64,000 nt of DNA from Candidatus Altimarinota bacterium (GTDB lineage Bacteria > Patescibacteriota > Gracilibacteria > UBA4473), in NCBI GenBank assembly GCA_965231215.1, contig OZ246423.1, positions 854,699 through 918,698 of the forward strand. The letters run 5' to 3'. Position numbers and translations under genes: made by a program. Below the pieces are notes generated by a model. The model did no database searches. It was not told the origin of the DNA and saw only the letters and a program-made list of their open reading frames with translations. Positions within the stretch are counted from its first letter, which is position 1. Every line of letters begins with the position of its first letter. Positions 1 to 18,899 of this stretch are shown here, piece after piece.

Positions 1-154
<154 letters not shown>

Positions 155-3885: not shown

Positions 3886-4788
3886 TCACTTTTTTTGCAC
3901 TTGTCTTCTTTTTTGAGAAAGAGAGGCCAGAACATTGTCTCTTTCAGAGATAGCTTTCCTGAATAGTCCGGTTACCTTAGGCTTAGACTCGTCTACTAGG
4001 AATTCATAAATTTCTATAAGTGTTATTAGCTCTGCGTCGTTTAGCTTGTTTAGTACGAATTTAAGATTGTCTAAAGCTGATCGGGAATTTCTAATTTGGC
4101 TTAGGCTTAAGCAGAAAAGCTGTAGAAGTTCATACTTGTTTTCTGAAAAGGACGCTCCTTTGTTAAGCGGTTCAAAATCTTCACTAGAGGTAGTTTGAAT
4201 AGTTTTTCTAACCACATCATCCATTTCATCTACAACCTTATTTTGTGTTGATAATATGAGAGACTGTATAGTTAAAGCTATATTTCGTAATTCGTTATTA
4301 TCTTCTGACTCCTGAATTATTTCAACCCACTTATCACCTTGTTCTGCATGCAGGATTTCTGCCTCAAAGACTTTGCCAGGCTCTGGAGCAAATATTTCCT
4401 CAAATATTTCCTCAAAGTCCCCCAAGGGGGCCTGAATGGCTTTGAGGAATTCATCTTTGAGTTTAGCAAGAAGTTTTGTGAGTTTTTTCTGATTAGGATC
4501 TTGTGTGATTACACAATTATAAATATTAAGAAGCCGCTGCTGGTCAAAAAGATCTAAAGCCTTAAAGATTTCTATGAAATTAGATAGGTAATATTCGTAG
4601 CTTTCCCTGCCTGCAGCTGCTAAAAATATTTGATCTTCTTGTGGGTTGTTTAGATCATCAATAGCAGAAATAGCAGATTTAATCTCTTTGGCTAGATTCT
4701 CAATAGTTTCGCCTGATTTCATACGATCGAACCACTGATCAAATCGATCAAGGCCTTCTTCGTATGCTGCTTCTGATATTTCGCACAT
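3886..4788 (-). CDS. Hypothetical acidic helical protein
   Basis: 300-aa ORF with no TM helix and no recognisable motif. Its TGA stop lies 1 nt from the clpC stop (convergent genes). Confidence 0.6.
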   Translation of the reverse strand: MCEISEAAYEEGLDRFDQWFDRMKSGETIENLAKEIKSAISAIDDLNNPQEDQIFLAAAGRESYEYYLSNFIEIFKALDLFDQQRLLNIYNCVITQDPNQKKLTKLLAKLKDEFLKAIQAPLGDFEEIFEEIFAPEPGKVFEAEILHAEQGDKWVEIIQESEDNNELRNIALTIQSLILSTQNKVVDEMDDVVRKTIQTTSSEDFEPLNKGASFSENKYELLQLFCLSLSQIRNSRSALDNLKFVLNKLNDAELITLIEIYEFLVDESKPKVTGLFRKAISERDNVLASLSQKRRQVQKK

Positions 4789-4870
4789 CAGAAGTTATAC
4801 TATAAAATTTTTTCTTAAATTGCAAAGATATCGTTTTATTTTCCGCTTTGAGTATGATAGAATAAACAGA

Positions 4871-7324
4871 ATGGATATAGGTTTTTGGCTGAAGGTAATG
4901 GTAACTGGCGTAATCGTTGGAGGAGCCGTTATTTTTTGGCTTTGGTATGTTCGCCGGCAGCATGATGTGGCGCGAACTTTGGATTTTGTATTTTTACGTG
5001 TTTTGATTCCCAAGAAAGATTCAAAAGACGATTTTGAAAAAGAGCGAGACCAAACCAATGAAATCCGAAAAGTAATTGGAATTGGAGAACATTTTTTTTC
5101 AGCTTTGCACGGAGTTTATAGCTCAGACTGGGATAGAGCCTGGAAAAACCAGGATTTTATGTCTCTGGAATATATTGCTACAGACGGACAGATTGAATTT
5201 GTTATGGGATGTCCGCGTGATATTAAAGATTTGGTAGAAAAACAAATTACCTCTTTTTATCCAGAAGCCCTTGTGGAAGAAGGAGAAATGCCCTCGCTGT
5301 TTCAGGAAAAAACCAAACAAGCGACCGGATATCTGGTTGCCGCCGGAAAATATTTTTACCCGATGAAGACTTATACCCGGTTTGAATCAGCTGACCCCAT
5401 GAACAATGTATTAAATGCGTTGTCTCAAGCCTCAGATGAACATGGGAATGCCGCTGCAATTCAATTTATGATTCGCCCAGCTAAGGATAAGTGGCAGCAA
5501 AAAACTCGAGATAAATCCAAAGAACTTGGAAGTGGAAAAAAAAGTATTTCTTGGTGGAATCCAATTTCTATTTTGGGGGGATTATTCCAGGTGATTATTG
5601 GTCGAAATGAGGAAAATAACAGTAATAATGATGAAGGAAAGGAAACCAATGAATCTCAAGAACTCACTAAAGCCATGGATGAAAAAGCTGAAAAAAGTGG
5701 GTTTGAAACCATTATTCGGTGTGTGACATCGTCGCCTGATCAACGCCAGGCAGAGGTGAATTTGGCCAATGTTTTAAACGCCTTTACCCAATTTGGAACC
5801 CCCACTATGAATGGGTTTAAAAAGAAAAAATACCATTCAAAAAATGCCCTTATTCAGAACTTTGTATGGCGAGCCTTTAAACGTTCTTGGCACGTTCAGA
5901 ATAAGATGATTCTTTCGACAGAGGAACTGGCTAGTATGTATCACTTTCCGCATATTAAGTTCAACAATATTCCATCAGTAAAATGGCAAAATTATAAAAT
6001 TGTTCAGGCGCCAGCCAATATTCCCAAAGAAGGCTTGTTGTTGGGACATAATTTGTACCGTGGTAAGAACACGCCCATTTATATGAAACGGGATGATCGG
6101 TTCCGTCATTTCTACGTGATTGGACAAACCGGTACCGGGAAATCCTCCATTTTTCAGACAATGATTCGTCAGGATATGGCCAATGGTGATGGACTGTGTG
6201 TGGTAGATCCGCATGGGAGCTTGGTAGAAGATCTTTTACCTTTTGTACCAAAAGATCGAGTGGATGATGTTATTATCTTTGATCCCTCAGACCTAGAGCG
6301 TCCTATGGGACTTAATCTACTAGAAGCCGATACAGAAGAAGAACGAGATATGGTAGCACTAGATGCCATGAATATGATGATTAAACTCTTTGACGAAGAG
6401 GTGTTTGGTCCTCGTATTCAGGATTATTTCCGGAATGGAGTCTTGACCCTTATGGCCGATCCAGCAGGGGGGGCCATCACCGACATCATGCGTATTTTTA
6501 CCGATGATGCGTTTCAGCGTTCAAAAGTGAAACACCTTAAAAACCCAGTCGTGAAAAGTTTCTGGACCAACCAAATGGCCAAAACTGGAGCCCGAGAGAA
6601 ACAAGAAATTATTCCCTACTTTGCGGCTAAGTTTGGTCAATTCTATACCAATGGAATGATCCGAAATATTATTGGGCAGACTAAATCTTCCTTTGATTTC
6701 GCGGATGTAATGGATAATAAAAAGATCCTCTTTATGAATCTTTCTAAAGGAATGACTGGAGATTTCAACTCCAAGCTGTTGGGGCTTATCATTGTGTCTA
6801 AAATTCAGACAGCAGCACTGCGAAGGCAAAAACAAGAAAAAGGTGCCAGAACCGATTTTTTCCTCTACATCGATGAATTTCAGAACTATGTCACCGACTC
6901 TATTGAATCTATTTTATCTGAAGCTCGTAAATACCGTCTGGGGCTAAATGTAGCCCATCAGTACATGTCACAGATTGACACCTCTGGACAAAAGAAAGGT
7001 GTAAACCTAAAAGATGCCATCCTGGGAAATGTGGGCACCATGATGTGTTATAAAATTGGAGCTCAAGATGCTGAAATTATGGGCAAAGAAATGGCTCCGG
7101 CCTTTACCGACCAAGACTTGATTAACGTAGATAAATATAAAGCCGTGATGAAACTCTCTGTTGATACGCAGCCATCGCAGCCATTCTCTATTACGCCGTG
7201 TAATCCGTATATAGAAAAAGGAGACCCAAAAATGGGAACAGCCCTTAAACAAATCTCTCGCCTCACTTATGGGCGGAGTAAAAAGTTCGTAGAAAAAGAG
7301 ATATTTGCTCGATTAGATGTTTAA
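4871..7324 (+). CDS. Membrane-anchored VirD4/TraD/TraG-like (type IV coupling protein-like) P-loop ATPase
   Basis: N-terminal TM helix IGFWLKVMVTGVIVGGAVIFWLWYV, Walker A VIGQTGTGKS, VVDPHG and IIFDPSD segments, Walker B-like DFFLYIDEFQ. The ORF track begins at 4820; the ATG at 4871 is preferred. Confidence 0.6.
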   Translation: MDIGFWLKVMVTGVIVGGAVIFWLWYVRRQHDVARTLDFVFLRVLIPKKDSKDDFEKERDQTNEIRKVIGIGEHFFSALHGVYSSDWDRAWKNQDFMSLEYIATDGQIEFVMGCPRDIKDLVEKQITSFYPEALVEEGEMPSLFQEKTKQATGYLVAAGKYFYPMKTYTRFESADPMNNVLNALSQASDEHGNAAAIQFMIRPAKDKWQQKTRDKSKELGSGKKSISWWNPISILGGLFQVIIGRNEENNSNNDEGKETNESQELTKAMDEKAEKSGFETIIRCVTSSPDQRQAEVNLANVLNAFTQFGTPTMNGFKKKKYHSKNALIQNFVWRAFKRSWHVQNKMILSTEELASMYHFPHIKFNNIPSVKWQNYKIVQAPANIPKEGLLLGHNLYRGKNTPIYMKRDDRFRHFYVIGQTGTGKSSIFQTMIRQDMANGDGLCVVDPHGSLVEDLLPFVPKDRVDDVIIFDPSDLERPMGLNLLEADTEEERDMVALDAMNMMIKLFDEEVFGPRIQDYFRNGVLTLMADPAGGAITDIMRIFTDDAFQRSKVKHLKNPVVKSFWTNQMAKTGAREKQEIIPYFAAKFGQFYTNGMIRNIIGQTKSSFDFADVMDNKKILFMNLSKGMTGDFNSKLLGLIIVSKIQTAALRRQKQEKGARTDFFLYIDEFQNYVTDSIESILSEARKYRLGLNVAHQYMSQIDTSGQKKGVNLKDAILGNVGTMMCYKIGAQDAEIMGKEMAPAFTDQDLINVDKYKAVMKLSVDTQPSQPFSITPCNPYIEKGDPKMGTALKQISRLTYGRSKKFVEKEIFARLDV

Positions 7325-7643
7325 TCAATGGCCCATCATTGTTTTTTCACCAGAGCTTGACCTATTGTACTTAGGAGTTCTGGTTAATAGTTTGATGTAT
7401 TTAGTGGTCTATCCTATGTGGGCCAAAAGTGACTGGAATCGTTTAGTTATAGGGGACACCATTGCTGGGCTTGGAGTTTTGACAGTAGTATTGGTTAATT
7501 ACTGGGGCAGTGAAATTAATATCCAAGTATTTGGAAATATATTCTTGAGTTGGTGGGTGTATTTTATTCTGATCTATTTTGTACTAGATAGTGTTTTCTT
7601 TGGTGTGTATTGGTGGCAGTTTCTAAAAATTGATAAAAAGTAA
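7317..7643 (+). CDS. Small polytopic membrane protein of unknown function
   Basis: 108 aa with about 3 hydrophobic helices. Its ATG overlaps the end of the upstream ATPase gene by 8 nt, suggesting translational coupling. Confidence 0.55.
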   Translation: MFNQWPIIVFSPELDLLYLGVLVNSLMYLVVYPMWAKSDWNRLVIGDTIAGLGVLTVVLVNYWGSEINIQVFGNIFLSWWVYFILIYFVLDSVFFGVYWWQFLKIDKK

Positions 7644-7664
7644 AAAAAGTGTTATTATTATGAA

Positions 7665-8174
7665 ATGGGTTTAAATAAACTAACTTCATTTCCAGAAACA
7701 ATTAAGTTAGGTGAAGAAGTCTTATTTTTGGAATTCTCTCCAATCCTTGGTAAAATTGAGTCGGATGTGAAGGACTTTGTGGCTGAGTACTATATTAAGC
7801 CCGTAGGTCTTAGTGAAACTCGAATTAAGCAACTTGATAAAGCATTATGTTTAGAAGACCTGCTTATTGTTAGAAACCAAGAAAGGGAAATTGTTGGTTG
7901 TTTGGCTTCAGAGATTGAAGATAATGAACTTGGTTTAGTTGCTGTATGCCCAAAATATCAAAGGCGTGGGCTAGCCTTGCAGATGGGTGAGCTTGTTGTA
8001 AGTGAAATGTTAAAGCAAGCTAATGATGAATCAATTGAGATTTCAACTAGAGTGCAAACTGAAGCAGGAATGAAGCTGGTTGAGGAATTACAAAACAAAA
8101 CTCCTGCTTCAGTTTCTATAGTTATTACTGAAGACCTGAGAGCTTTCTATCGAGAAAGAAAGAAAAAAAATTGA
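7665..8174 (+). CDS. GNAT-family N-acetyltransferase
   Basis: 169 aa. The segment VAVCPKYQRRGLALQMG matches the GNAT acetyl-CoA binding motif (Q/R-x-x-G-x-G/A). Confidence 0.7.
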   Translation: MGLNKLTSFPETIKLGEEVLFLEFSPILGKIESDVKDFVAEYYIKPVGLSETRIKQLDKALCLEDLLIVRNQEREIVGCLASEIEDNELGLVAVCPKYQRRGLALQMGELVVSEMLKQANDESIEISTRVQTEAGMKLVEELQNKTPASVSIVITEDLRAFYRERKKKN

Positions 8175-8257
8175 GTCGCTCAAAAAGACCGTTTTGAAAT
8201 AAATGATTCGCCATGGTTCACAGGAATTTATTTTATATGGATATTTTCTCTCCTTAA

Positions 8258-9226
8258 CTACTTATTCCATGGCATTCTTTCCATCAAATGGGTGAAAAGC
8301 ATTTTGCCCGTTACTCCAATGAAGAGCAGCATAATCGCAATCGCAAAGATGATGATTTTTCCAATAAAAATACTTCCCGGAAGAGCCATTCCAATAATTA
8401 GAAAAAGCCCAAGGACAATATAAATTTGTCTTTGAGGGCCAGCATCAACAAATCCTTTTTTACTATTGCCGAGTTTGTGTTTGGTTTTGTTCCAAAATCC
8501 TTTTGGCTTTTCTTCCTTTTGGGTTGCCTGATCAGTTTCACTTTTAGGTTCGGTTTCTTCAGTTTTAGGTGCTGGCTTTGGTTCGGTTTCTTTTTTGGGT
8601 TCTTCTGCAGGCTTTTCGGTTGTTTTTTCTGCCTCTTGGTCGTTTGCTTCTGGTTGAGGTTCTTCTTTCTTTACTTCGTTTTGGGTTTCATTACTTTCTG
8701 TGTTTTCTGTCTTTTGCTCTTCTTGAGGGGCTTCTGGTTTAGAGTCTTCCCCGGTTTTGGCTTCGCTTTCTTCTTTTTTGGCAAAAGGGTTAATTTTGTT
8801 AAGGCCTCCACTTACGGCTCCAAAGGCATTTGAGGCTCCTTCTTTTACCTCACCTCCAGGATTATTGGCTTGAAGTGGTTCATTCCCAACAACGAGAGAC
8901 TTTTGGGCATGACTCCAGGCTTCGATCCCTCCAGCGAGAATAAGGATAGATTTTTCTTTTTCAGTTCCATGAATGATATCTACGGCTTTTTCAACGCTTA
9001 CTCCTTGGTTATGTGAGGCCAAAATAACCGTTTTTCCCTCAAAAGCGATTAAGTTATCTTTAAGGTCATCAAGTGGACAGTTTTTAAACCCCTTAATATG
9101 ACCTTGTTCAAACTCCTGTAGGCTCCGGATATCTACAAACAGATCATCAGAGGCAGCATTGTTGATTCGGTTTTCTAAGGCAGAAATTTCAATTTCTTCG
9201 GAAACGATTTGGATGTCATCAGCCAT
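8258..9226 (-). CDS. Rhodanese-homology domain protein with a long Glu/Lys/Pro-rich linker and a C-terminal two-helix membrane anchor (YgaP-like architecture)
   Basis: N-terminal rhodanese fold (FVDIRSLQEFEQGHIKG ... VILASHNQGVS), about 100 aa of low complexity, then hydrophobic helices IYIVLGLFLIIGMAL and IIIFAIAIMLLFIGV. The active-site loop has no Cys. Confidence 0.65.
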   Translation of the reverse strand: MADDIQIVSEEIEISALENRINNAASDDLFVDIRSLQEFEQGHIKGFKNCPLDDLKDNLIAFEGKTVILASHNQGVSVEKAVDIIHGTEKEKSILILAGGIEAWSHAQKSLVVGNEPLQANNPGGEVKEGASNAFGAVSGGLNKINPFAKKEESEAKTGEDSKPEAPQEEQKTENTESNETQNEVKKEEPQPEANDQEAEKTTEKPAEEPKKETEPKPAPKTEETEPKSETDQATQKEEKPKGFWNKTKHKLGNSKKGFVDAGPQRQIYIVLGLFLIIGMALPGSIFIGKIIIFAIAIMLLFIGVTGKMLFTHLMERMPWNK

Positions 9227-10689: not shown

Positions 10690-13600
10690 ATGAATCAAAA
10701 CAGCCCAGAAGAACGGTTTGCGAATGTGCTTAATAAAGTAGAATTTGAAAAGGCTGAAAATTTAGAAAAGGAATTTGCTCAGCTTCGAGAATCTCAAAAG
10801 GCCGTGGTTGCTGGAGACTCTGAGCTTCAAGCTTTGCTTGACAAGGCTCTTTTGGAGTCGATAGATAAATTGGAAGAAAAAATGTCTGGAGGTGAACTGC
10901 CTCGAGAGCTTATTGAACAGTTTTTAACTTTTTGGGAAAACCTCAACACGGTACCAGCTATTAGAGCCTTGGCTGCCGAGCAGGGATTGGACACCCAAGA
11001 CGTGGCCGCTCCTGCTCCAGCAATGAGTATTGGTTTTTCTTTTGAGGTAACCGCGGCAGAAAATTTGAGAGATCCACTCAACCACAATACTCTTTTAGGT
11101 CGAGCTGAAGTGGGACAAATTTTCAAAGTTGTGGGGGAGTTGCCCGCGAGAGGTCAATATGAATATCGTTTGGTTGAGAATCAAAAGGGACAACGGTTTA
11201 AGATTTGTATTAATGATGATCTTAAATACCGTCTGGCGGCTGAACCGGTTCGGGGAGATGGAAATGATGAAGATAAAGCCGAGTTAGTGTCAGCAGCACC
11301 TGAGCAAGTTGAAGCTCAGCCTTTTTCTGCTCAGGGAGTTGCGCCTGGTCAAAAAATACGGGTATCGGCAGCTGATACTTTAAGAACTTTAGATGGATCA
11401 AGATCAGGAGTTGCACTTAACGTTGGTGATGAGGTCACGTTTGTGAAAGCTATGGAGGTCAGCTCAAAGGGGTATGAATACTGGGAAGTAGAAGTAAATG
11501 GTGAGCATTATAAGCTGTGTATTAACGATACGTTGGGAGGCACAATTTTATCTGATTCTGAGCGAGTGGTGTCTGGAGCTCAGGCGATTTATATTCCAGA
11601 CTCCTCTGGAGGCACTTCTGTCCCGGAAGTTTCTGAAAGAGATCCTAAAACTGAAGCTTTGAGAAAAGCGAACTTGGAAGCATCGGAGTCACTTTTGTCA
11701 GAACCATTAAGAGCGGTTTATACCGATTTGGTAAATCAAATTCAGGGTTTGAATATTGAAGATAAAAGCACTTTGGGAGCCTCTCCTGTGCACATTACTA
11801 CGTTCCGAGGCAGACCAGAGATTTCCTCTGGAAGTTGGCGTAAAGCCGATACTTCATTGGTTTCTGAGACCTGGAATGATCTGACTTCAGAGCAGAGAAA
11901 AGAAGTGGTAGATATGGTCAATCTGTGGTGGAACAGTAATCACGCTGATCTGCTAGAGCCAGGAACCGAGAACCGTAATAGTTACATTACAGATTCGATT
12001 TTGCGATCGCAGTTTTCGGCTTTATCTGCTTCTCCAGAGGCCGAGAATGCAGGGAGCTTAGCCGATCAGGTGATAGAGGGTTTGGTCAACTATGCAGAGA
12101 CTAATCTAAATGGAAGATCGGTTTCTTTGGTGGCGGAGGGGTTCCAATTATTAACGGCTAAGATGGGAGCCGAGTACGGAACTAAACTGGCTCAAGCGGT
12201 TAAATCTAATCCTAAAATTGCAATTAGTGAGTTGTATAGCAATTTTTGTGAGGCGGTTGGTAGTGTTGAGACCTCGGCCAATATTCAGGACTTAATTAAT
12301 GGCGTTAATTTTTCTGAACTCGGAATCCCGGCTACCTCAAGACCCTTTGTCGTTTCGGGGGATAACTTGGTATACATGGCTAGGACAGGAAAAGTTCAGA
12401 TTGATTTAGGCGGCCAGTGGCCAGGGTTGTCAGTAGTAGACAAAGCCGCTGTAATTGGAGGACTAAATGATAAGATTCAGGTTCATGCCAATCGGTACGA
12501 TCGATTTGAGGAGGCTTTAGCTAAAGATATTTTAGATCTGTTTAGTGATTATAGTGTAACAGACGCAACTCAAGCGGTTCTGGCTCGTTTACGGCAAGAA
12601 CCAAATTTTTTGAATACGTTGCCAGCGGATCGTCAGGACGAGGCTGCCTGTGCCGCTTTTCTGACTCGTTATTTTGATAATGTTTATGGATCAAGGTTTT
12701 CTAGCTTCTCTAATTTAGGAGGAAAGAACGCTTGGGAATATGCTAAGACGCTCATTGATTCTGGCTATGGAAACATGGGGACCGATATTTCTTCTTTTTA
12801 CAATATTGATTCTGTTCGAGCCCAAAACGAAAAAGATAAATCAGCGATTACGCTTGATGATGGCTCACCAGAGTTCCAGGCGAAAATGGAGGAATTTATG
12901 CAGAGCGCTTTTGATCCACAGGCCAATGGTGGAGTAGTAACGTTCCACTATCGATTAACCAGTGCTAATGATAATATTGTTAACACGCCTCATGCTTCTC
13001 CGAATTCTCATGTGACGACTTCTCTGGGCGAAAAAAGTTATGAAGTTGCTTCTACAGGGCGGGCAGTTACTGCTGAGTTAATGCGGTATTTTGCTCAGAA
13101 AATTGGCCGTCATAGTGTTGGAAAACCAGAATATCTGCAGTATCTGAAAAATGTTAAGGCTGGTGATACACCGCTGATCTACGATTCTTCGAAAGGTGAT
13201 TTCGTGGGACCGGATGGAAAAGTCTTCCGTCCACAATCTGGAGAACCTATTACCTTTGATGATGTTGAATTGGCTCATTTTTATCATAAGCACCCAGATG
13301 ACGCAGACCCGGTACGAAGAGATGGATTGGTGGCGCTTATGTCAACAGGGCTGTTTGAGCCGGTTCAGGTGATCAACCTAAATCCTGATGCGGTATCTGT
13401 GCCACCAGCCGGGCGACAATTTAACGAAAGTTTTGTGACGTCTGTTCATCATTCAGAAAAACCAATGAGTCAGACAGATATTGAATCGCTGTATCGACAA
13501 GAATATGAATCGCTCCTATCTAAACAACCAGGAGGCTCTGAAACCGTTGATTCCTTGGTTGAAAAATCAATGCAATACCTAACTGAAAATTTATACCAAA

Positions 13601-13692
13601 GTATTTTGGCTCGATCAGATGATCCGACTGAAAAAGTATTTCCGGCAGATTCTCCGCTGCCCATTATAGATTGGAGACAAAAACCTGTTTAG
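10690..13692 (+). CDS. Large (1000 aa) hypothetical protein with two tandem SH3b-like repeats
   Basis: Internal repeat at about 11041-11222 and 11355-11535 (V.AA.NLR ... G ... YEY ... V ... G ... K(I/L)CIND.L). No signal peptide. The start lies 4 nt after the upstream stop. Confidence 0.7.
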   Translation: MNQNSPEERFANVLNKVEFEKAENLEKEFAQLRESQKAVVAGDSELQALLDKALLESIDKLEEKMSGGELPRELIEQFLTFWENLNTVPAIRALAAEQGLDTQDVAAPAPAMSIGFSFEVTAAENLRDPLNHNTLLGRAEVGQIFKVVGELPARGQYEYRLVENQKGQRFKICINDDLKYRLAAEPVRGDGNDEDKAELVSAAPEQVEAQPFSAQGVAPGQKIRVSAADTLRTLDGSRSGVALNVGDEVTFVKAMEVSSKGYEYWEVEVNGEHYKLCINDTLGGTILSDSERVVSGAQAIYIPDSSGGTSVPEVSERDPKTEALRKANLEASESLLSEPLRAVYTDLVNQIQGLNIEDKSTLGASPVHITTFRGRPEISSGSWRKADTSLVSETWNDLTSEQRKEVVDMVNLWWNSNHADLLEPGTENRNSYITDSILRSQFSALSASPEAENAGSLADQVIEGLVNYAETNLNGRSVSLVAEGFQLLTAKMGAEYGTKLAQAVKSNPKIAISELYSNFCEAVGSVETSANIQDLINGVNFSELGIPATSRPFVVSGDNLVYMARTGKVQIDLGGQWPGLSVVDKAAVIGGLNDKIQVHANRYDRFEEALAKDILDLFSDYSVTDATQAVLARLRQEPNFLNTLPADRQDEAACAAFLTRYFDNVYGSRFSSFSNLGGKNAWEYAKTLIDSGYGNMGTDISSFYNIDSVRAQNEKDKSAITLDDGSPEFQAKMEEFMQSAFDPQANGGVVTFHYRLTSANDNIVNTPHASPNSHVTTSLGEKSYEVASTGRAVTAELMRYFAQKIGRHSVGKPEYLQYLKNVKAGDTPLIYDSSKGDFVGPDGKVFRPQSGEPITFDDVELAHFYHKHPDDADPVRRDGLVALMSTGLFEPVQVINLNPDAVSVPPAGRQFNESFVTSVHHSEKPMSQTDIESLYRQEYESLLSKQPGGSETVDSLVEKSMQYLTENLYQSILARSDDPTEKVFPADSPLPIIDWRQKPV

Positions 13693-13706: not shown

Positions 13707-14867
13707 ATGTCTAACGAGTATTCACCATCGAATTCAGAAAACCCTCATGATTCAGAGAGAGATAAGGCTTGCGCTGAATTTAGTGCTGAGTGTGCAGATT
13801 TGAGTTCGAGTATTTCGATGGCTAGTACTCAACCAGAAATGAGTGAAGCTTTTAGAGATAACATAAGTTATATTAAGCCTTTTATTGAAGATAAAGTTGA
13901 TCTGTCTTATCCGAAGGCCCCTTCTCCGAGGGAAGCCGCGATTCTATTGCAGCCTGAGACGGCTAGAATGGTAGCGACTCTTTTTCAACATTTAGAGGCC
14001 GAAGGTTATCCGAAGTGGTTAATTGATGGAGCGGTGACTATTACTAGTACAGTTCGATCTAAAGAATATACTAATCATATTTATGATCAGTATATTGCTG
14101 AGGCCAAAGCGGCCGGAGATACGGCTACCGCTAATCGTTGGAAAAGGATTAAGGCTCGTCTAGCTAGTGGAGCTCAATTATCTCATACAACGGGGAGAAA
14201 GGTGGACATTGTTGTTTCTCAGAGAAGATTGAATTCTTTGAGTGAGTTTTGGAACCCGAACGGTATTTTCGCGTCTGTAGAAAATTTCTTTAAATCTGGA
14301 AAAGCTTCAGGTTTTAATGCCGATTTTCATGCTGGTCACTTTGATATTTATCCGACCACTCCTAATCCTCGGGACATTCCCTTTGAAACTGACGCCGACA
14401 TTAATAATGCTATTGCCGCTCGTAATAACACTTCGCAGAGAAGGGCCTCAGGTAATTATGTAGCAGAGGCGTCTCAAGGCGTTCCGGTGGTGGCCGATTC
14501 TGTTGAACCTGAAGGAGCAGGGCCAGCGGATAAAGTTAGTTTATTCGCTGGACAGGTTGAACCAAAAGGTTCGTCGATAGTTGAGGGAAAAGACCTTCAT
14601 CGATCAGTGATAGTTGATTCTAGAGTCGTTCAAACTCGGCTTAATCTAAGAGATATAGATAATCCAAATAAGGTATTACAGAAGGCTAAAGCTAATGATG
14701 TTTTTGAGTGTTCTCAACCCCCAGCGGTTAAGACTGGTAAAGAATTAGGTCTTGCTGATGAGGATCTTGCTGATCTTAAATTTGTATGTCTTAAGTCTTC
14801 GAAAGGAAAAGTTTGGGCTTGGCTTGATGCTTTTAAACAGGAAGAAGGACCAACAGCAGTTGCTTAG
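13707..14867 (+). CDS. Hypothetical protein with LAS (peptidase M15/VanY-like) metal-binding motifs and a C-terminal SH3b-like segment
   Basis: SHTTGRKVD (H-x2-G-x3-D, about 14181-14207) and DFHAGHFD (about 14322-14345). The C-terminus reads TRLNLRD ... KFVCLKSSKGKVWAW. No signal peptide. The function call is tentative. Confidence 0.45.
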   Translation: MSNEYSPSNSENPHDSERDKACAEFSAECADLSSSISMASTQPEMSEAFRDNISYIKPFIEDKVDLSYPKAPSPREAAILLQPETARMVATLFQHLEAEGYPKWLIDGAVTITSTVRSKEYTNHIYDQYIAEAKAAGDTATANRWKRIKARLASGAQLSHTTGRKVDIVVSQRRLNSLSEFWNPNGIFASVENFFKSGKASGFNADFHAGHFDIYPTTPNPRDIPFETDADINNAIAARNNTSQRRASGNYVAEASQGVPVVADSVEPEGAGPADKVSLFAGQVEPKGSSIVEGKDLHRSVIVDSRVVQTRLNLRDIDNPNKVLQKAKANDVFECSQPPAVKTGKELGLADEDLADLKFVCLKSSKGKVWAWLDAFKQEEGPTAVA

Positions 14868-14966
14868 TTTTTATTTAGAAGCCTCGCTTCTTGATCTTTG
14901 TTCAGTTCGGTCTTGAGATTTTTATTTCAATCCGCATAATTTGGGGGATTTTTCCTTGAATTTTTT

Positions 14967-17603
14967 ATGTCTGAAGAAAACCATCTGATTACCGAACGAA
15001 AAGCTAAAATACAGGCCTGGAATGATCTAGGTTTTCCTGGGTATGCCAAAGATTTTGAACGCACTCACACAGCAGCTGAAGCCGTTGAAGACATAAAATC
15101 TAATGAAGGCGCCTTGCGCGAGGCTCCAGCCATTATGGCTAAACCTCAGCAGGCTCGATCTATGGCCGGTCGTATTGTGGCGAGCCGTGAGATGGGGAAG
15201 TTGGCCTTCCTCAAAATTCGGGATGTATCAGGGAATTTTCAGATTTGTTTGGCCCAAGATTTATTAGGAGCTAATTTCAAAGCGTTATTAAAAGCGTTAG
15301 ATTTGGGAGATTACTGTGGTTTTGCCGGAGAGTTCTTCACGACCAAAAACGGAGAACCTACCCTTATGGCGGTGGAAGTGACGCCTCTTTCAAAGTCGCT
15401 ACGACCGCTGCCCGAAAAATGGCATGGATTAACAGACAAAGAACACTGTTACCGAGAAAGAAACTTAGATCTAATTTCAAATCAAGAATCATTTAAACGG
15501 TTTAAGATTCGGAGTGAAGTGGTAAAAGCCGTACGTAATTTTTATGAAGCACGGGACTTTATAGAAGTGGAAACCTCTATCTTGCAAGCTCAAGCTGGAG
15601 GCGCTATGGCCAAAACCTTTGAAACGCATCACAATGCCTTGGATCATAATTTTCATCTGCGGATTGCGCTAGAACTACCGCTCAAAATAGCCTGCTCAGG
15701 AGGATTTGAACGCATCTTTGAAATCGGAAAATGTTTTCGGAATGAAGGAACCGATCCGTCTCATTTGCAGGAATTTACCATGCTTGAATGGTATGCGGCC
15801 TACGTCAGCTTTGAACAAAACATGGAATGGAATGAGCAAATGCTGCGTGAAATTGCGACCAAAGTTTTTGGCAAAACGGTTTTCACCGTCAAAGACAAAA
15901 ATGAAACAGATCATGAGATTGATTTTGAAAAGCCCTTCGCCAAGAAACGTTTTGCTGATCTACTCAAAGAGTACGCTGACTTTGATATGTTTAGCGCGAG
16001 TGATGATGAGGTTCGGGCTAAAGCGGCGGAAGTAGGCGTGGAACAAATCGATGGAGTGGGACGAGCTAATTTGCTCGATGATATCTATAAAAAAACCGCT
16101 CGGCCAAATCTGATTCAGCCAACTTTTGTGTTAGATTACCCAGAAGATCTCAAACCTTTAGCTGCTCCAAACGGAGACGGAACGGCCAGCTGTTTCCAAG
16201 TGCTCATTGCCGGGTGGGAGGTGATTAATGCCTATGGAGAATTGATTGATCCACAAATCCAAAGAGCCTTGTTGGAAAAACAAGCCGAATTCAAAGCCAG
16301 TGGAGACGATGAAGCTATGGAGGTAGATGAAGTTTTTCTCAAAGCCATGGAACACGGATTCCCGCCAATGGCTGGGCAAGGAATGGGGATTGATAGAATT
16401 GTGACCCTGCTTACCGGACAAGACAATCTCCGAGAAGTAGTACTCTTCCCAACGATGCGTCCAGAAACGGGTAAACAAGATAAGGAAACCAAGCTCGCTA
16501 CAGCTATTATCAATACCGATCTGATATCTGAAGACTGGCAGGCGCTCAACTCTGTGGGGCATCTGTGTGCGGCCTTTGGAGCGAGAGAAGGAAAATCTCT
16601 GTTCTATCAAGACGAAGTAGAAACCAAAGACGGAAAGACCATTAAACTTAACACCACTCAGGCCATTATGATTAAGGGATGTGACAAAAATCTATCCCTC
16701 ATTGACCTAGCTCAAAAAGCGAAAGCACAAGGATTGCAAGTAGCTGAATTTACCCGAGAAATGCTAGCAACATCAGATGACGCTAAAGTGGCCGAAATTA
16801 CCAAAACTAAAAACCTATCTGAGATAGATTTTTACGGCATATTAGTATTTGGTAAAAAATCTGTAGTGGAGAATATGACTAAGGAGTTTGAACTATTAAG
16901 AAGCTTAGAAAATGCTTCCACTAGTCATCCCCATGAAGATGGGGATCCAGATAATAAGAATTCCGATTTAGAAGTAGATTCCCGTATGCACGGAAATGAC
17001 AATTCAGGAGGCGGTTTTGAAATTTTCGATGGAGAATTTGATAGGGATAAAGCTTGGAAGATGGTTAAGTCCCGATGTGATTGGGCCCTCCAAAGACACT
17101 TGGCTCATGTGGCGGTCAGTATGGAAGCTTTAGCGGTGCATCTAGGACACCAAGACCAAAAGGAAACCTGGTACTTAACGGGGCTGCTACATGATATTGA
17201 CTGGAATCAAACTATTGAAACGCCAGAACTTCATTGTGGCGAACCTACCATGCAGTACCTGGAAGCCAACGGAGTGCCAGAAGTAATCTACAGAGGAATT
17301 CAATCTCATCACGAAATCTTTGATCTTCCAATAGATTCAGATCTGCGGAAAGGGCTTTTAGCCGTCGATGAAATCTCTGGATTTGCCGTAGCCGTAGCCC
17401 AAATGCGCCCCACCAAAATGGAGGGAATTTCACCAAAATCCATTACCAAAAAAATGAAAGACAAGCAGTTTGCAGCTAGCGTAAGCCGTGAGCATATGAA
17501 ATACTGTGAGCCTTATTTTAACATCCCCGTATCAGAATTTTTACAGATCCTCATTCCCGCCTGGGAGGCTATTGCTCAAGACTGGAAGTTAGTAGGCGAA
17601 TAG
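14967..17603 (+). CDS. lysS: Lysyl-tRNA synthetase (class II) fused to DUF2000 (PTH2-like) and COG2316-type HD phosphohydrolase domains
   Basis: The LysRS core spans aa 1 to about 500 (FRNEGTDPSHLQEFTMLEWY, GMGIDRIV). The DUF2000-like part is at about 16491-16900 (WQALNSVGHL, FTREMLATSDD, FYGILVFGKKSVVENMTKE). The HD part is at about 17040-17600 (TGLLHDIDW, IQSHHE, KKMKDKQFAASVSRE). Confidence 0.85.
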   Translation: MSEENHLITERKAKIQAWNDLGFPGYAKDFERTHTAAEAVEDIKSNEGALREAPAIMAKPQQARSMAGRIVASREMGKLAFLKIRDVSGNFQICLAQDLLGANFKALLKALDLGDYCGFAGEFFTTKNGEPTLMAVEVTPLSKSLRPLPEKWHGLTDKEHCYRERNLDLISNQESFKRFKIRSEVVKAVRNFYEARDFIEVETSILQAQAGGAMAKTFETHHNALDHNFHLRIALELPLKIACSGGFERIFEIGKCFRNEGTDPSHLQEFTMLEWYAAYVSFEQNMEWNEQMLREIATKVFGKTVFTVKDKNETDHEIDFEKPFAKKRFADLLKEYADFDMFSASDDEVRAKAAEVGVEQIDGVGRANLLDDIYKKTARPNLIQPTFVLDYPEDLKPLAAPNGDGTASCFQVLIAGWEVINAYGELIDPQIQRALLEKQAEFKASGDDEAMEVDEVFLKAMEHGFPPMAGQGMGIDRIVTLLTGQDNLREVVLFPTMRPETGKQDKETKLATAIINTDLISEDWQALNSVGHLCAAFGAREGKSLFYQDEVETKDGKTIKLNTTQAIMIKGCDKNLSLIDLAQKAKAQGLQVAEFTREMLATSDDAKVAEITKTKNLSEIDFYGILVFGKKSVVENMTKEFELLRSLENASTSHPHEDGDPDNKNSDLEVDSRMHGNDNSGGGFEIFDGEFDRDKAWKMVKSRCDWALQRHLAHVAVSMEALAVHLGHQDQKETWYLTGLLHDIDWNQTIETPELHCGEPTMQYLEANGVPEVIYRGIQSHHEIFDLPIDSDLRKGLLAVDEISGFAVAVAQMRPTKMEGISPKSITKKMKDKQFAASVSREHMKYCEPYFNIPVSEFLQILIPAWEAIAQDWKLVGE
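16926..17000. repeat. Inverted pair of small palindromic repeat units embedded in frame in the lysS fusion linker
   Basis: GTCATCCCCATGAAGATGGGGATCCAG (7-bp stem) sits next to TAGATTCCCGTATGCACGGAAATGAC. The reverse complement of the second unit, GTCATTTCCGTGCATACGGGAATCTA, has the same GTCAT-stem-loop-stem-ATC layout. Confidence 0.45.
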
Positions 17604-17789: not shown

Positions 17790-18899
17790 ATGAAGAAATT
17801 AGTTCTAAGTTTAGGGATTCTATTATTGCCACTTCAGGTATTGGCTGAAGTAGAGCTTTTTCAGTTGGTTATGTTTGATTGGGAGGGAGAAACTAAAAAA
17901 CTAAAACTGGTTTCACTGGGTTCAGGAACCTCTATTGGGAAGGATCTTATTATCACCAATAAGCATGTAGTAGAAATTAATGATGAGCCAGCGGATCTTA
18001 TTCTACTCTGTCAGGCCAAACAAAAAGCCACGCACAAGGTAGAGTGTAATATCCCAGCAGGAATCTCGATCCTCCATAGAGACTTTGATGTGGCGCTGGT
18101 AAAACCTATTGTTTCAGGAGCTTTTATTCCTCAAGTACGAACCTCTACCGCCATTAAAAGAAAGGGAGATGTGGTGCGAATTGTTGGATTCCCAGCCCCA
18201 GACGGACAACGGCAAAATTTTGGAGGCCAAGCGACCCTGAACGCCTTTAAAACCTGGGAAGCCGATCCGACCACACCACTGCAAATACGAGGCGATAAAC
18301 CTACCATTACCCGTGGAGAAATCTTGGCGCGGTATAAACTAGAAAATACGGGAGAAACCTTTGCGCTGACTTCAGCCAAAGTGAATTTTGGAAACTCAGG
18401 TGGAGCCGCGTTTGATCAGTTTGGAGATTTTGTTGGGATTCCTTCTTTAAAAGATCGCGAAGGAAATGCCTTTATATTAGAGTACGCCCAAATCTATGAT
18501 TGGGTGAATAAAAATTCAGCTAAAAAACCTCAGTTTGATCAGGACGCATTGAATTTTTATAACCAGATATCGAACGCTAAAGCCGCTTCTAAATCCAGCC
18601 GTTGGGCAGGAAGACTTAATAATAAAAGCAGTTCTGCTACCACTGCTACTACTTCAAAGTCAGACCTCAGGGCCAAGCTAAGAGCTCGGTTGCTCGCGCG
18701 TAAAAATGGAATTTCTACCAGCGTTCAAAGTTCTAACACTACCACTAGTAGGGCGAGGCAGAGTTTGAGAGAGCGGCTCAAGGCCCGTTTAGCCGCTAAG
18801 CGAGCACAACTAAAGGCGTCTAAACATAATACAATTTCAACGAATCGATATAACCGGTCTTATTATTTCAATCAGTACCGCCAAGATTTAGCGGATTAG
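17790..18899 (+). CDS. Secreted trypsin-like (S1 family) serine protease with an Arg/Lys/Ala-rich C-terminal tail
   Basis: Signal peptide MKKLVLSLGILLLPLQVLA. The catalytic triad context is TNKHV, DVALVK and GNSGGAAFD. The tail reads LRAKLRARLLARKNG ... LRERLKARLAAKRAQLKA. Confidence 0.8.
   Translation: MKKLVLSLGILLLPLQVLAEVELFQLVMFDWEGETKKLKLVSLGSGTSIGKDLIITNKHVVEINDEPADLILLCQAKQKATHKVECNIPAGISILHRDFDVALVKPIVSGAFIPQVRTSTAIKRKGDVVRIVGFPAPDGQRQNFGGQATLNAFKTWEADPTTPLQIRGDKPTITRGEILARYKLENTGETFALTSAKVNFGNSGGAAFDQFGDFVGIPSLKDREGNAFILEYAQIYDWVNKNSAKKPQFDQDALNFYNQISNAKAASKSSRWAGRLNNKSSSATTATTSKSDLRAKLRARLLARKNGISTSVQSSNTTTSRARQSLRERLKARLAAKRAQLKASKHNTISTNRYNRSYYFNQYRQDLAD

What the first reader, a model, noticed from the sequence alone, without database searches (positions are those of the whole stretch)
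14967..17603. LysRS fused to a PTH2-like DUF2000 domain and an HD phosphohydrolase
The 878-aa ORF has three parts:
- a complete class II lysyl-tRNA synthetase (to about aa 500)
- a domain matching DUF2000, which has a peptidyl-tRNA-hydrolase-2-like fold (WQALNSVGHL ... FTREMLATSDD ... FYGILVFGKKSVVENMTKE)
- after a low-complexity linker, a COG2316-type HD domain (TGLLHDIDW ... SHHE ... KKMKDKQFAASVSRE)

LysRS is a well-known source of Ap4A, and HD-domain enzymes such as YqeK hydrolyse Ap4A. A PTH2-like domain suggests hydrolysis of aminoacyl- or peptidyl-tRNA esters.

The fusion may therefore couple lysine charging with product editing and/or dinucleotide-polyphosphate turnover. I do not recall this architecture being described.
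Basis: partly seen in the sequence, partly recalled or inferred. Interest (0 to 1): 0.6.

Follow-up and report, generated by a model that had tools for sequence, protein, structure and literature searches.

The report
Lysyl-tRNA synthetase with two hydrolase tails
This tiny-genome bacterium makes its only lysine-charging enzyme as one chain with a peptidyl-tRNA-hydrolase-like domain and a metal-dependent HD hydrolase, one example of an unstudied but widespread set of such fusions, which suggests that lysine tRNA gets proofreading or clean-up that textbooks do not describe.

Summary
Window 14967-17603 (+) is one uninterrupted 878-aa ORF with three parts:
- a complete class II LysRS (aa 1-500), the only LysRS in this 1.33-Mb genome;
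- a DUF2000 domain (aa 513-645). Its model matches 2GAX first and then only PTH2 structures;
- after a low-complexity linker, an HD domain (aa ~693-874) with all putative metal ligands conserved.

At least 14 independent assemblies carry the same in-frame triple fusion.

The architecture belongs to a larger, undescribed pattern in CPR bacteria and DPANN archaea. Their LysRS C-terminus carries interchangeable modules: DUF2000, B3/4, an AlaX-like editing domain, and this HD, in varying order.

The HD belongs to a large family of free-standing ~195-aa proteins. In a 401-genome sample, 49 of the listed HD copies sit in long ORFs (all those inspected are LysRS fusions) and 78 stand alone. Of 20 free-standing copies inspected, 9 lie directly downstream of a LysRS gene, and 2 of those 9 are the unrelated class I LysRS.

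Function is inferred only:
- DUF2000 is probably a tRNA(Lys) acyl-ester hydrolase (editing or recycling).
- HD is a LysRS-dedicated phosphohydrolase, with Ap4A or aminoacyl-AMP clean-up the leading guess.

Two results weaken the Ap4A idea: the HD co-occurs with YqeK, and it is linked to class I LysRS. I found no paper describing any of this.

The parts
14967..17603 (+). Whole gene: 878-aa LysRS-DUF2000-HD fusion, stop codon included
   Evidence: A single open frame. The full-length architecture is conserved in at least 14 other assemblies.
14967..16466 (+). Class II lysyl-tRNA synthetase module (aa 1-500): N-terminal helix, OB anticodon-binding domain (aa 66-141, nt 15162-15389) and catalytic core (aa 158-497, nt 15438-16457)
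   Evidence: Pfam PF01336 and PF00152. NCBIfam PRK00484 and TIGR00499 score above their cut-offs. It is the only LysRS in the genome: the other PF00152 hit is a 603-aa AspRS-type ORF, and no class I LysRS scores above cut-off.
16503..16901 (+). DUF2000 domain (aa 513-645), PTH2-like alpha/beta fold. Family-invariant residues: N528, G542, D555, K570, F595, T596, E598, K615, G624, G629. H532 is nearly invariant.
   Evidence: PF09391 at 63 bits. A profile search hits PDB 2GAX at E 5e-5. The AF2 model has pLDDT 86. Foldseek gives 2GAX at E 2e-10 and TM 0.70/0.76, then only Pth2 structures. Invariant residues come, numbering.
16902..17042 (+). Low-complexity acidic/Gly-Asn linker (aa 646-692). Its length and sequence vary among homologues.
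   Evidence: Alignment A1, columns about 745-795. Sequence printed.
17043..17588 (+). HD phosphohydrolase domain (aa ~693-874). Putative metal ligands: H711, H742-D743, H756, H781, D801. Invariant D745. Basic signature S825, K828, K829, K831, K833, F835, A836, R841.
   Evidence: PF01966 is hit by all 15 aligned homologues. The AF2 model has pLDDT 92.8 and is all-helical. The best Foldseek matches are HD proteins only, none below E 1e-3. The invariant residues are shared with 22 free-standing relatives. Numbering.
14913..14940 (+). Promoter-like site (TTGAGA-16-CATAAT) in the 99-nt gap upstream. A hairpin followed by a T-run at 14877-14891 lies after the preceding gene.
   Evidence: Consensus scan only; the number of sites does not exceed the shuffled expectation. 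There is no T-box or other Rfam leader. Weak evidence.

Best explanation
The gene encodes the cell's only, housekeeping class II lysyl-tRNA synthetase. It is extended by two catalytic accessory modules on flexible linkers.

Shown:
- The three domains are real and lie in one reading frame.
- The fusion is conserved.
- DUF2000 has the Pth2 fold.
- The HD domain keeps a full H...HD...H...H...D ligand set.
- This HD family is a persistent partner of LysRS genes. It is fused to them, or placed directly downstream of them, in many CPR families and next to both LysRS classes.

Inferred:
1. The DUF2000 module binds the acylated CCA end of tRNA(Lys), either leaving the synthetic site of the same dimer or in trans. 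It hydrolyses wrong or N-blocked acyl esters. That would be a post-transfer proofreading or recycling step, which canonical LysRS lacks.
2. The HD module is a metal-dependent phosphohydrolase. It destroys a phosphoanhydride side-product of lysine activation. The most likely substrates are Ap4A/ApnN made from Lys-AMP plus NTP, or released non-cognate aminoacyl-AMP.

Tethering would raise the local concentration of these substrates for both hydrolases.
For: Architecture and housekeeping role.

DUF2000:
- PTH2-like fold.
- All 80 best DUF2000 loci among the species-representative genomes (genome contigs) lie in frame behind LysRS, in CPR bacteria and DPANN archaea.

The same C-terminal slot holds recognised aminoacyl-tRNA editing folds in other CPR LysRSs:
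- LysRS-B3/4-HD (P0074, L130, L133).
- LysRS-HD-B3/4 (L132).
- LysRS-DUF2000-AlaX-like, i.e. tRNA-synt_2c C-terminal end plus tRNA_SAD (L127, L128).
- B3/4 proteins can act as stand-alone deacylases (CtdA, PMC10018355).

HD:
- Ligands are invariant in fused and free forms.
- Their order matches the two-metal site of YqeK (H29, H58-D59, H91, H117, D135; PMC11857287).
- YqeK entries are the top PDB sequence matches, though not significantly (E 0.018 to 0.12).

HD-LysRS linkage:
- Among the 150 listed matches of a 401-genome phylum sample, 49 HD matches lie in ORFs of 500 aa or more, 78 are free-standing and 21 are DUF2000 matches in long ORFs.
- Of 20 free-standing HD genes inspected, 7 sit directly downstream of class II lysS and 2 downstream of class I LysRS.
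- A syntenic relative has lysS, a 132-aa gene and HD as separate genes.

The own genome has no YqeK and no ApaH.

Class II LysRS is known to misactivate Orn, Hcy and Hse, and has only pre-transfer editing (PMC7373986).
Against: No activity has been measured for any DUF2000 protein or for this HD family.

DUF2000:
- It does not match the PTH2 HMM.
- Profile-profile comparison with Pth2 is very weak (probability 1.7%).
- The Pth2 'GK..AQ..HA' lysine seems to be replaced by Q or E. This rests on my manual alignment.
- A canonical Pth1 is present in this genome, and Pth2 is present in 4 of 5 DPANN genomes that carry LysRS-DUF2000.
- In L127 and L128, DUF2000 coexists with an AlaX-like domain, so the two are not simple substitutes.

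HD:
- It is not a YqeK-family member.
- It has W where YqeK has the catalytic Lys62.
- It co-occurs with true YqeK in 5 of the 8 YqeK-bearing genomes.
- Three Nudix proteins could cover Ap4A hydrolysis.
- Class I LysRS needs tRNA for activation (PMC7373986). From my own knowledge it is therefore not expected to make much Ap4A, yet it also keeps the HD as a neighbour.
Confidence: 0.4

Rival explanations
1. The HD module acts on tRNA(Lys) itself rather than on a nucleotide by-product. It would be a phosphoesterase that heals or trims a tRNA end, for example removing a 2',3'-cyclic or 3'-phosphate, as the HD domain of some CCA-adding enzymes does. LysRS would then receive a chargeable tRNA.
For: - The HD is linked to LysRS of both unrelated classes, which share tRNA(Lys) but not Ap4A chemistry (PMC7373986).
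- It is co-fused, in either order, with domains that bind tRNA acceptor ends: B3/4, AlaX-like, and the PTH2 fold.
- Free-standing members weakly resemble the HD tail of an archaeal Trm56 tRNA methyltransferase model (NF009343, E about 4e-5).
- In one locus the gene neighbours miaA (L015).
- The top Foldseek hits are the HD domain of the bacterial GlyRS beta subunit (E 0.07), which approaches the acceptor arm (PMC8464048).
- There is no mutual exclusion with YqeK.
Against: - All of these similarities are at the level of the HD superfamily.
- No kinase or ligase partner for tRNA repair is seen in the neighbourhood.
- The genome has its own CCA-adding enzyme, which gives a weak HD match.
- Nothing explains why only tRNA(Lys) would need such healing.
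Confidence: 0.2
2. DUF2000 is a dedicated peptidyl-tRNA(Lys) or N-acyl-Lys-tRNA(Lys) hydrolase. It would recycle dropped-off or N-blocked tRNA(Lys) and hand the free tRNA straight back to the fused synthetase. It would not be a proofreader of mis-charged amino acids.
For: - Pth2 proteins are its only structural relatives besides 2GAX.
- From my own knowledge, not checked here, tRNA(Lys) is the limiting species in E. coli pth(ts) cells (Heurgue-Hamard et al. 1996).
- Every one of the 80 best DUF2000 loci among the species-representative genomes is fused to LysRS.
Against: - A canonical Pth1 is present here, and Pth2 is present in DPANN genomes carrying the fusion.
- Pth2 catalytic motifs are not recognisably kept.
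- The slot is shared with editing-type folds (B3/4, AlaX), not with Pth1.
Confidence: 0.15
3. One or both tails are non-catalytic. They would serve as extra tRNA-binding or dimer-stabilising domains that improve charging in a reduced genome, as the degenerate HD domain of bacterial GlyRS beta or Trbp111-type appendages do.
For: - There is precedent for a non-catalytic HD domain in an aaRS. In E. coli GlyRS beta the HD doublet is changed to S-K, and mutations there affect aminoacylation (PMC8464048).
- DUF2000 lacks recognisable Pth2 catalytic motifs.
- The HD family carries a conserved Lys/Arg-rich signature.
Against: - The His and Asp ligands of the HD domain are invariant across fused and free-standing members at only 28-38% identity for most of them.
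- The same HD exists as an abundant stand-alone 195-aa protein, with more than 8000 hits.
- DUF2000 also has invariant polar residues: N528, D555, K570, T596, E598, K615.
Confidence: 0.12
4. The fusion is an assembly or gene-calling artefact, and the three parts are really separate genes.
For: - A close relative has lysS and HD as separate genes in the same reading frame, separated by stop codons and a different middle gene.
- Read support could not be checked.
Against: - The frame is open through both linkers.
- At least 14 independent assemblies carry the same in-frame architecture, including one at 84% identity over the LysRS core plus DUF2000 region.
- The linker varies in sequence but never contains a stop.
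Confidence: 0.02

Closest known systems
DUF2000 / Atu0240 (Pfam PF09391; PDB 2GAX), a structural-genomics protein of unknown function
   Same: The middle domain is a member. It scores above the Pfam cut-off, and 2GAX is its best structural match (TM 0.70/0.76).
   Different: Atu0240 is a free-standing 135-aa protein, whereas here the domain is fused behind LysRS. No function is known for either. This genome also has a free-standing paralogue with 25% identity.
Peptidyl-tRNA hydrolase 2 (Pth2/PTRH2, PF01981; e.g. 2ZV3, 1Q7S, 1XTY)
   Same: The same alpha/beta fold. Pth2 proteins are the only other significant structural matches (E 1e-5 to 1e-3). Their substrate is an acyl ester on the tRNA 3' end, which is the product chemistry of LysRS.
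   Different: There is no HMM match. hhalign probability is 1.7%. The conserved residues differ. Canonical Pth1 or Pth2 coexists with the domain.
YqeK (COG1713/TIGR00488), the HD-domain symmetrical Ap4A hydrolase of Gram-positive bacteria
   Same: It is an HDIG-type HD domain of similar size. The order of putative two-metal ligands is the same (PMC11857287). It gives the best PDB sequence matches, although not significant ones. There is a logical link to Ap4A made by LysRS.
   Different: The domain does not match the family model. It has W in place of the catalytic Lys62. It has a distinct C-terminal basic signature. It lacks the nadD context. It coexists with true YqeK in 5 of 8 genomes.
cis- and trans-editing modules of other aaRSs: PheRS B3/4 and CtdA, AlaRS/ThrRS tRNA_SAD and AlaX
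   Same: These are hydrolase modules appended to, or working beside, a synthetase to clear mis-acylated tRNA. In sister CPR lineages the same folds occupy the same LysRS C-terminal slot (PMC10018355).
   Different: This protein carries a PTH2-type fold instead. No editing domain has been described for LysRS, which is known only for pre-transfer cyclisation of Orn, Hcy and Hse (PMC7373986).
HD domain of the bacterial GlyRS beta subunit
   Same: It is an HD fold built into an aaRS, and gives the top Foldseek hits (8IE2_E and 7EIV_C, E about 0.07, TM 0.47).
   Different: The GlyRS HD has lost the H-D doublet (changed to S-K) and is thought to bind the acceptor arm (PMC8464048). The LysRS HD keeps every ligand. 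The match is only at fold level.
LysX (LysRS-MprF fusion) of mycobacteria
   Same: It is another bacterial class II LysRS fused to an enzyme that uses a LysRS product. The NF002821 model matches the LysRS part only.
   Different: In LysX the partner is an N-terminal membrane lysyl-PG synthase. Here the partners are C-terminal soluble hydrolase-type domains.

Membership tests
Class II lysyl-tRNA synthetase (lysS) | OB anticodon-binding domain plus class II catalytic core, scoring above curated LysRS model cut-offs | tested here: met
   PF01336 and PF00152. PRK00484 scores 519 against 468; TIGR00499 scores 448 against 428.
Class II lysyl-tRNA synthetase (lysS) | Acts as the housekeeping enzyme, with no other LysRS in the genome | tested here: met
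   There are only two PF00152 loci, and the other is a 603-aa AspRS-type ORF. No class I LysRS scores above cut-off. The genome is 99.3% complete.
DUF2000 (PF09391) | Match to the family HMM above the gathering score | tested here: met
   63 bits against 25, aa 513-645, covering profile positions 5-133 of 133.
DUF2000 (PF09391) | Fold of the family's solved member, 2GAX | tested here: met
   Foldseek E 2e-10, TM 0.70/0.76, with a model of pLDDT 86.
Peptidyl-tRNA hydrolase 2 (PF01981) | Pth2 alpha/beta fold | tested here: met
   2ZV3, 1Q7S, 1XTY, 1WN2 and 3ERJ match at E 1e-5 to 1e-3, TM about 0.55/0.70.
Peptidyl-tRNA hydrolase 2 (PF01981) | Sequence membership (HMM or profile match) | tested here: not met
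   No PF01981 hit at E <= 1. hhalign of A3 against five DPANN Pth2 sequences gives probability 1.7%.
Peptidyl-tRNA hydrolase 2 (PF01981) | Conserved catalytic Lys of the GK..AQ..HA motif and Asp of the DAG.T motif. The residue roles come from my recollection of Fromant et al. 2005. | tested here: inconclusive
   Only a weak local alignment places F-T-x-E598 opposite I-T-D-A-G. By motif spacing the Lys position reads Q or E; this is my manual alignment. A structure-based alignment is needed.
HD superfamily (PF01966) | H...HD...D metal-ligand motif in an all-helical domain | tested here: met
   H711, H742-D743 and D801, plus H756 and H781, are invariant or conserved. The model is all-helical with pLDDT 92.8. 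This copy alone scores 17-20 bits, below the gathering score of 22, but all 15 homologues hit the model (best E 4.8e-10).
   Profile E-values of 1e-52 to 1e-87 against free-standing proteins. There are 21 invariant columns across 23 sequences.
   No COG library is available. Only the JGI product names agree with the COG2316 description.
YqeK Ap4A hydrolase (TIGR00488/COG1713) | Match to the family model | tested here: not met
   TIGR00488 is not among the NCBIfam hits. The own genome gives no match at E <= 1e-5. PDB profile matches to YqeK have E 0.018 to 0.12.
YqeK Ap4A hydrolase (TIGR00488/COG1713) | Two-metal ligand set plus catalytic Lys three residues after the H-D doublet (PMC11857287) | tested here: not met
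   The ligand pattern is present, but the Lys position is W746, aromatic across the family.
YqeK Ap4A hydrolase (TIGR00488/COG1713) | Phyletic complementarity expected of a functional substitute | tested here: not met
   YqeK scores over its cut-off in 8 of 401 phylum genomes. Five of these also carry the LysRS-linked HD.

The most novel reading that the evidence does not exclude
In CPR bacteria and DPANN archaea, LysRS is the hub of a modular quality-control system for tRNA(Lys).
- DUF2000 would be a previously unrecognised class of aminoacyl- or acyl-tRNA(Lys) deacylase. It would be the first post-transfer editing activity assigned to a LysRS, interchangeable with B3/4 and AlaX-type modules.
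- The ~195-aa HD family would be a LysRS-dedicated partner enzyme. It has been retained through swaps between class I and class II LysRS. It would act on a lysine-activation by-product or on tRNA(Lys) itself.
Probability: 0.3. Interest if true: 0.8.

Novelty: new variant of a known kind. Interest (0 to 1): 0.62.

Why it matters
LysRS is one of the synthetases for which no dedicated post-transfer editing domain is known, and it is the classic source of Ap4A.

This work points to a whole, undescribed set of natural LysRS fusions to a PTH2-like fold, B3/4, AlaX-like and HD modules. The HD partner is kept even where the LysRS class has been swapped. That offers a direct experimental handle on three questions:
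1. Does tRNA(Lys) mis-acylation or blocking need active clearance in organisms that scavenge all their amino acids?
2. What do DUF2000 and this abundant HD family do?
3. How is Ap4A or aminoacyl-AMP handled in bacteria that mostly lack ApaH and YqeK?

If the inference is right, two orphan families would gain a function, and the list of aaRS editing strategies would grow.

Tried and rejected
- **DUF2000 replaces a missing Pth.** Rejected. A canonical Pth1 scoring 192 bits is present, and 4 of 5 DPANN carriers have Pth2.
- **HD is a YqeK-family member or a phyletic substitute for YqeK.** Rejected as membership. No mutual exclusion was found.
- **Direct PDB sequence search with the 376-aa tail.** No hits.
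- **hhalign of DUF2000 against Pth2.** Too weak to map catalytic residues.
- **A T-box or other leader upstream.** None. The promoter and terminator scan did not exceed chance.
- **The middle gene of the split relative L006 is DUF2000.** It is not. That 132-aa protein has no Pfam or NCBIfam hit.
- **The small ORFs between class I LysRS and HD (L027, L028) are related to each other or to DUF2000.** They are not.
- **The triple fusion is one clade.** Not supported. The HD-linked state is scattered on the LysRS-DUF2000 tree, needing at least 8 changes for 10 rows.
- **Literature searches** for DUF2000, COG2316, LysRS with HD and Patescibacteria, and editing domain with Patescibacteria found nothing relevant. 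PMC2253226 (the Pth2 family paper) is not held.


Full report
**1. The observation**

Window 14967-17603 (+) is a single open frame of 878 codons.

- Pfam finds the OB anticodon-binding domain (aa 66-141), the class II D/K/N catalytic core (aa 158-497, E 2e-71) and DUF2000 (aa 513-645, 63 bits against a gathering score of 25).
- Pfam also finds a sub-threshold HD match at aa 710-786, 17.4 bits against 22.
- NCBIfam lysS models score above their curated cut-offs.
- The HD assignment holds at family level. All 15 aligned homologues hit PF01966, best E 4.8e-10. Free-standing relatives pass the HDIG cut-off.
- The putative ligands H711, H742-D743, H756, H781 and D801 are conserved.
- The AF2 model of the tail is a confident all-helical HD-type domain with pLDDT 92.8.

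**2. The fusion is real and the enzyme is the housekeeping one**

- The genome is a single 1.326-Mb contig, 99.3% complete.
- It has only one LysRS. The other PF00152 locus is a 603-aa AspRS-type ORF, and no class I LysRS scores above cut-off.
- Thirteen proteins from other assemblies share the full LysRS-DUF2000-HD architecture at 38-79% identity.
- The nearest, from MAG 'bacterium CG_2015-02_41_16' (L033), is 84% identical over the LysRS core plus DUF2000 region. It reads through both linkers without a stop.
- The linker at aa 646-692 is low-complexity and varies in length, as a tether would.
- Relatives are labelled Gracilibacteria, Peribacteria or Peregrinibacteria, so this is a CPR/Patescibacteria organism.

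**3. The DUF2000 module**

- A profile of the domain finds PDB 2GAX (Atu0240) at E 5e-5.
- The AF2 model (pLDDT 86) matches 2GAX best (E 2e-10, TM 0.70/0.76). After that it matches exclusively Pth2 structures: MJ0051, human Bit1, and Sulfolobus, Pyrococcus, Archaeoglobus and Thermoplasma Pth2. The PTH2-like fold is therefore verified.
- It is not a Pth2-family member by sequence. There is no PF01981 hit, and hhalign against five DPANN Pth2 sequences gives only a weak local match around '...IK...AK..GL.V.EFT.E' against '...LKV..AKD.GI..ITDAG'. The Pth2 GK..AQ..HA lysine appears not to be kept; this is my manual reading.
- It does not substitute for Pth. This genome has a canonical Pth1. Four of five DPANN genomes with LysRS-DUF2000 have a canonical Pth2.
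- DUF2000 is a small family, with 369 representatives at E <= 1e-3 in 1.84 billion sequences.
- All 80 best loci among the species-representative genomes (genome contigs) lie in frame directly behind a class II LysRS. They occur in many CPR groups and in Nano-, Woese- and Aenigmarchaeota.
- This genome also has a divergent free-standing paralogue of 132 aa.

**4. The HD module**

- It belongs to a very large family of free-standing ~195-aa proteins in Patescibacteria. More than 8000 hits were found, and JGI names them 'predicted hydrolase (HD superfamily)'.
- Fused and free forms share 21 invariant columns. These include all putative ligands and a basic signature, S-x2-KK-x-K-x-K-x-FA-x4-R.
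- No solved structure is close. No Foldseek hit falls below E 1e-3.
- The best Foldseek hits are the HD domain of the GlyRS beta subunit, then PgpH, then a YqeK-type protein.
- By sequence profile, YqeK entries come top but are not significant, at E 0.018 to 0.12.
- The ligand order parallels the YqeK two-metal site (PMC11857287). However, the YqeK catalytic Lys62 position is W746 here.

**5. The wider pattern, which is the main result**

In a 401-genome sample of the phylum, 181 genomes match the tail. Among the 150 listed matches:
- 49 are HD domains inside ORFs of 500 aa or more. Every such long ORF I inspected is a LysRS fusion.
- 21 are DUF2000 domains inside long ORFs.
- 78 are free-standing HD genes.
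- Only the window's own protein has both domains.

I inspected 20 free-standing HD loci:
- Seven have class II lysS immediately upstream on the same strand.
- Two, from two different families, have a class I LysRS upstream, in the order lysK, small ORF, HD, serS.
- Sister genomes in the family of one of these two have class II lysS followed by HD instead (L021, L022). So the LysRS class was swapped while the HD neighbour stayed.
- By a rough estimate of my own, chance adjacency in a genome of about 1000 genes is around 0.2%.

A syntenic close relative (L006) has lysS (500 aa), an unrelated 132-aa gene and HD (187 aa, 73% identical to the window's HD domain) as separate genes. They lie ahead of the same protease and rplP cluster.

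Other CPR LysRSs carry different tails:
- LysRS-B3/4-HD (P0074, L130, L133).
- LysRS-HD-B3/4 (L132).
- LysRS-DUF2000-AlaX-like, with the tRNA-synt_2c C-terminal end plus tRNA_SAD (L127, L128).

On a tree of 79 LysRS-DUF2000 proteins, the HD-linked state needs at least 8 changes for 10 rows, close to the shuffled expectation. The modules have therefore been re-assorted repeatedly.

**6. Mechanism**

Shown:
- The architecture, the folds and the conservation of polar and ligand residues.
- The class-independent genomic coupling of the HD family to LysRS.

Inferred for DUF2000:
- B3/4 and tRNA_SAD are established aminoacyl-tRNA deacylase folds. CtdA is a free-standing example of a B3/4 deacylase (PMC10018355).
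- Their appearance in the same slot as DUF2000, together with the Pth2 fold, makes hydrolysis of an acyl ester on tRNA(Lys) the most economical reading. The ester could be a mis-charged amino acid or an N-blocked one.
- Canonical class II LysRS has only pre-transfer cyclisation of Orn, Hcy and Hse (PMC7373986).

Inferred for HD:
- The intact ligand set and the abundance of free-standing forms argue for an enzyme, unlike the degenerate HD of GlyRS beta (PMC8464048).
- The leading guess is hydrolysis of phosphoanhydride by-products of lysine activation, i.e. Ap4A/ApnN or aminoacyl-AMP.
- The genome lacks YqeK and ApaH, though it has three Nudix proteins.
- Two of my tests count against a simple 'YqeK analogue'. 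The HD coexists with true YqeK in 5 of the 8 genomes that have YqeK. It is also tied to class I LysRS, which needs tRNA to activate lysine.
- A tRNA(Lys)-directed phosphoesterase therefore remains a serious rival.

I put 0.4 on the combined best explanation, 0.2 on the tRNA-end rival, and less on the others.

**7. Comparison with what is known, and novelty**

- The protein is a member of class II LysRS, of DUF2000, and of the free-standing CPR HD family.
- It has the fold of Pth2 but is not a member of that family.
- It may work like YqeK but is not a member of that family.
- I found no paper mentioning DUF2000, COG2316, or LysRS fusions of this kind.
- Public annotations call these proteins simply 'lysine--tRNA ligase'.
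- Earlier AI notes of this scan describe sister architectures in at least 12 other genomes. I read them only after making. They agree with my results but are not independent evidence.
- I rate this a new variant of a known kind: an aaRS with appended hydrolytic modules. It is of good interest to the aaRS and CPR fields. Function remains entirely untested.

Noticed in passing
L028 (G354:C1:88000-100000) 4765-8442 (-); L027 (G260:C1:419500-431500) 4490-8261 (-): In two CPR genomes from different families, the free-standing HD gene sits in the order class I LysRS, small unrelated ORF, HD, SerRS. Sister genomes in the family of one of them (L021, L022) have class II lysS followed by HD. The LysRS class appears to have been swapped beside a retained HD gene.
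   Followed up: partly
L127 1847-4858 (+); L128 1727-4873 (+); L130 941-3793 (+); L133 609-3467 (+); L132 1098-3941 (-): Other CPR LysRS architectures were found: LysRS-DUF2000-AlaX-like (tRNA-synt_2c C-terminal end plus tRNA_SAD; 1004 and 1049 aa), LysRS-B3/4-HD (951 and 953 aa), and LysRS-HD-B3/4 (948 aa).
   Followed up: partly
L006 4081-6564 (+): A syntenic relative on a 1.295-Mb contig has lysS (TAA stop), a 132-aa gene with no Pfam or NCBIfam hit in place of DUF2000, and a separate 187-aa HD gene. All three lie in the same reading frame and are preceded by a dus gene.
   Followed up: partly
G000:C1:638080-638472 (-) = L004 1498-1896 (-): The genome has a second, free-standing DUF2000 paralogue of 132 aa, 25% identical to the fused domain. 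It abuts an ORF with TrmB-like (tRNA m7G methyltransferase) motifs and lies about 0.7 kb from RNase Y.
   Followed up: no
P0026; L097, L075, L073, L071: P0026 has W wherever its relatives have conserved G. This suggests an organism that reads TGA as Gly (code 25) but was called with code 4. Several LysRS-DUF2000 loci show 3 to 34 in-frame stops under table 11, which would also fit stop-codon recoding; I did not check which stop codons these are.
   Followed up: no
P0011 (533 aa) and P0078 (314 aa): P0011 joins the trigger factor N-terminal and FKBP domains to the C-terminal piece of DUF2000 plus the HD; it may be a chimera. P0078 is GTP cyclohydrolase I fused to this HD (58% identical). It is recorded in a freshwater mussel assembly and is probably a bacterial contaminant.
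   Followed up: no
window 10690-13692 (+) and 13707-14867 (+): A 1000-aa ORF with no Pfam match is followed by a 386-aa ORF with only a weak VanY-like hit (E 0.0015). Both lie directly upstream of the LysRS gene.
   Followed up: no
window 17790-18899 (+) and 19087 onward: A secreted-looking trypsin-like protease gene separates the LysRS gene from a ribosomal-protein cluster that starts at L16 (rplP). The same order is seen in L006.
   Followed up: no
window 1-154 (-): The 5' end of a bacterial SSU rRNA gene runs off the window start (Rfam RF00177, 105 bits).
   Followed up: no
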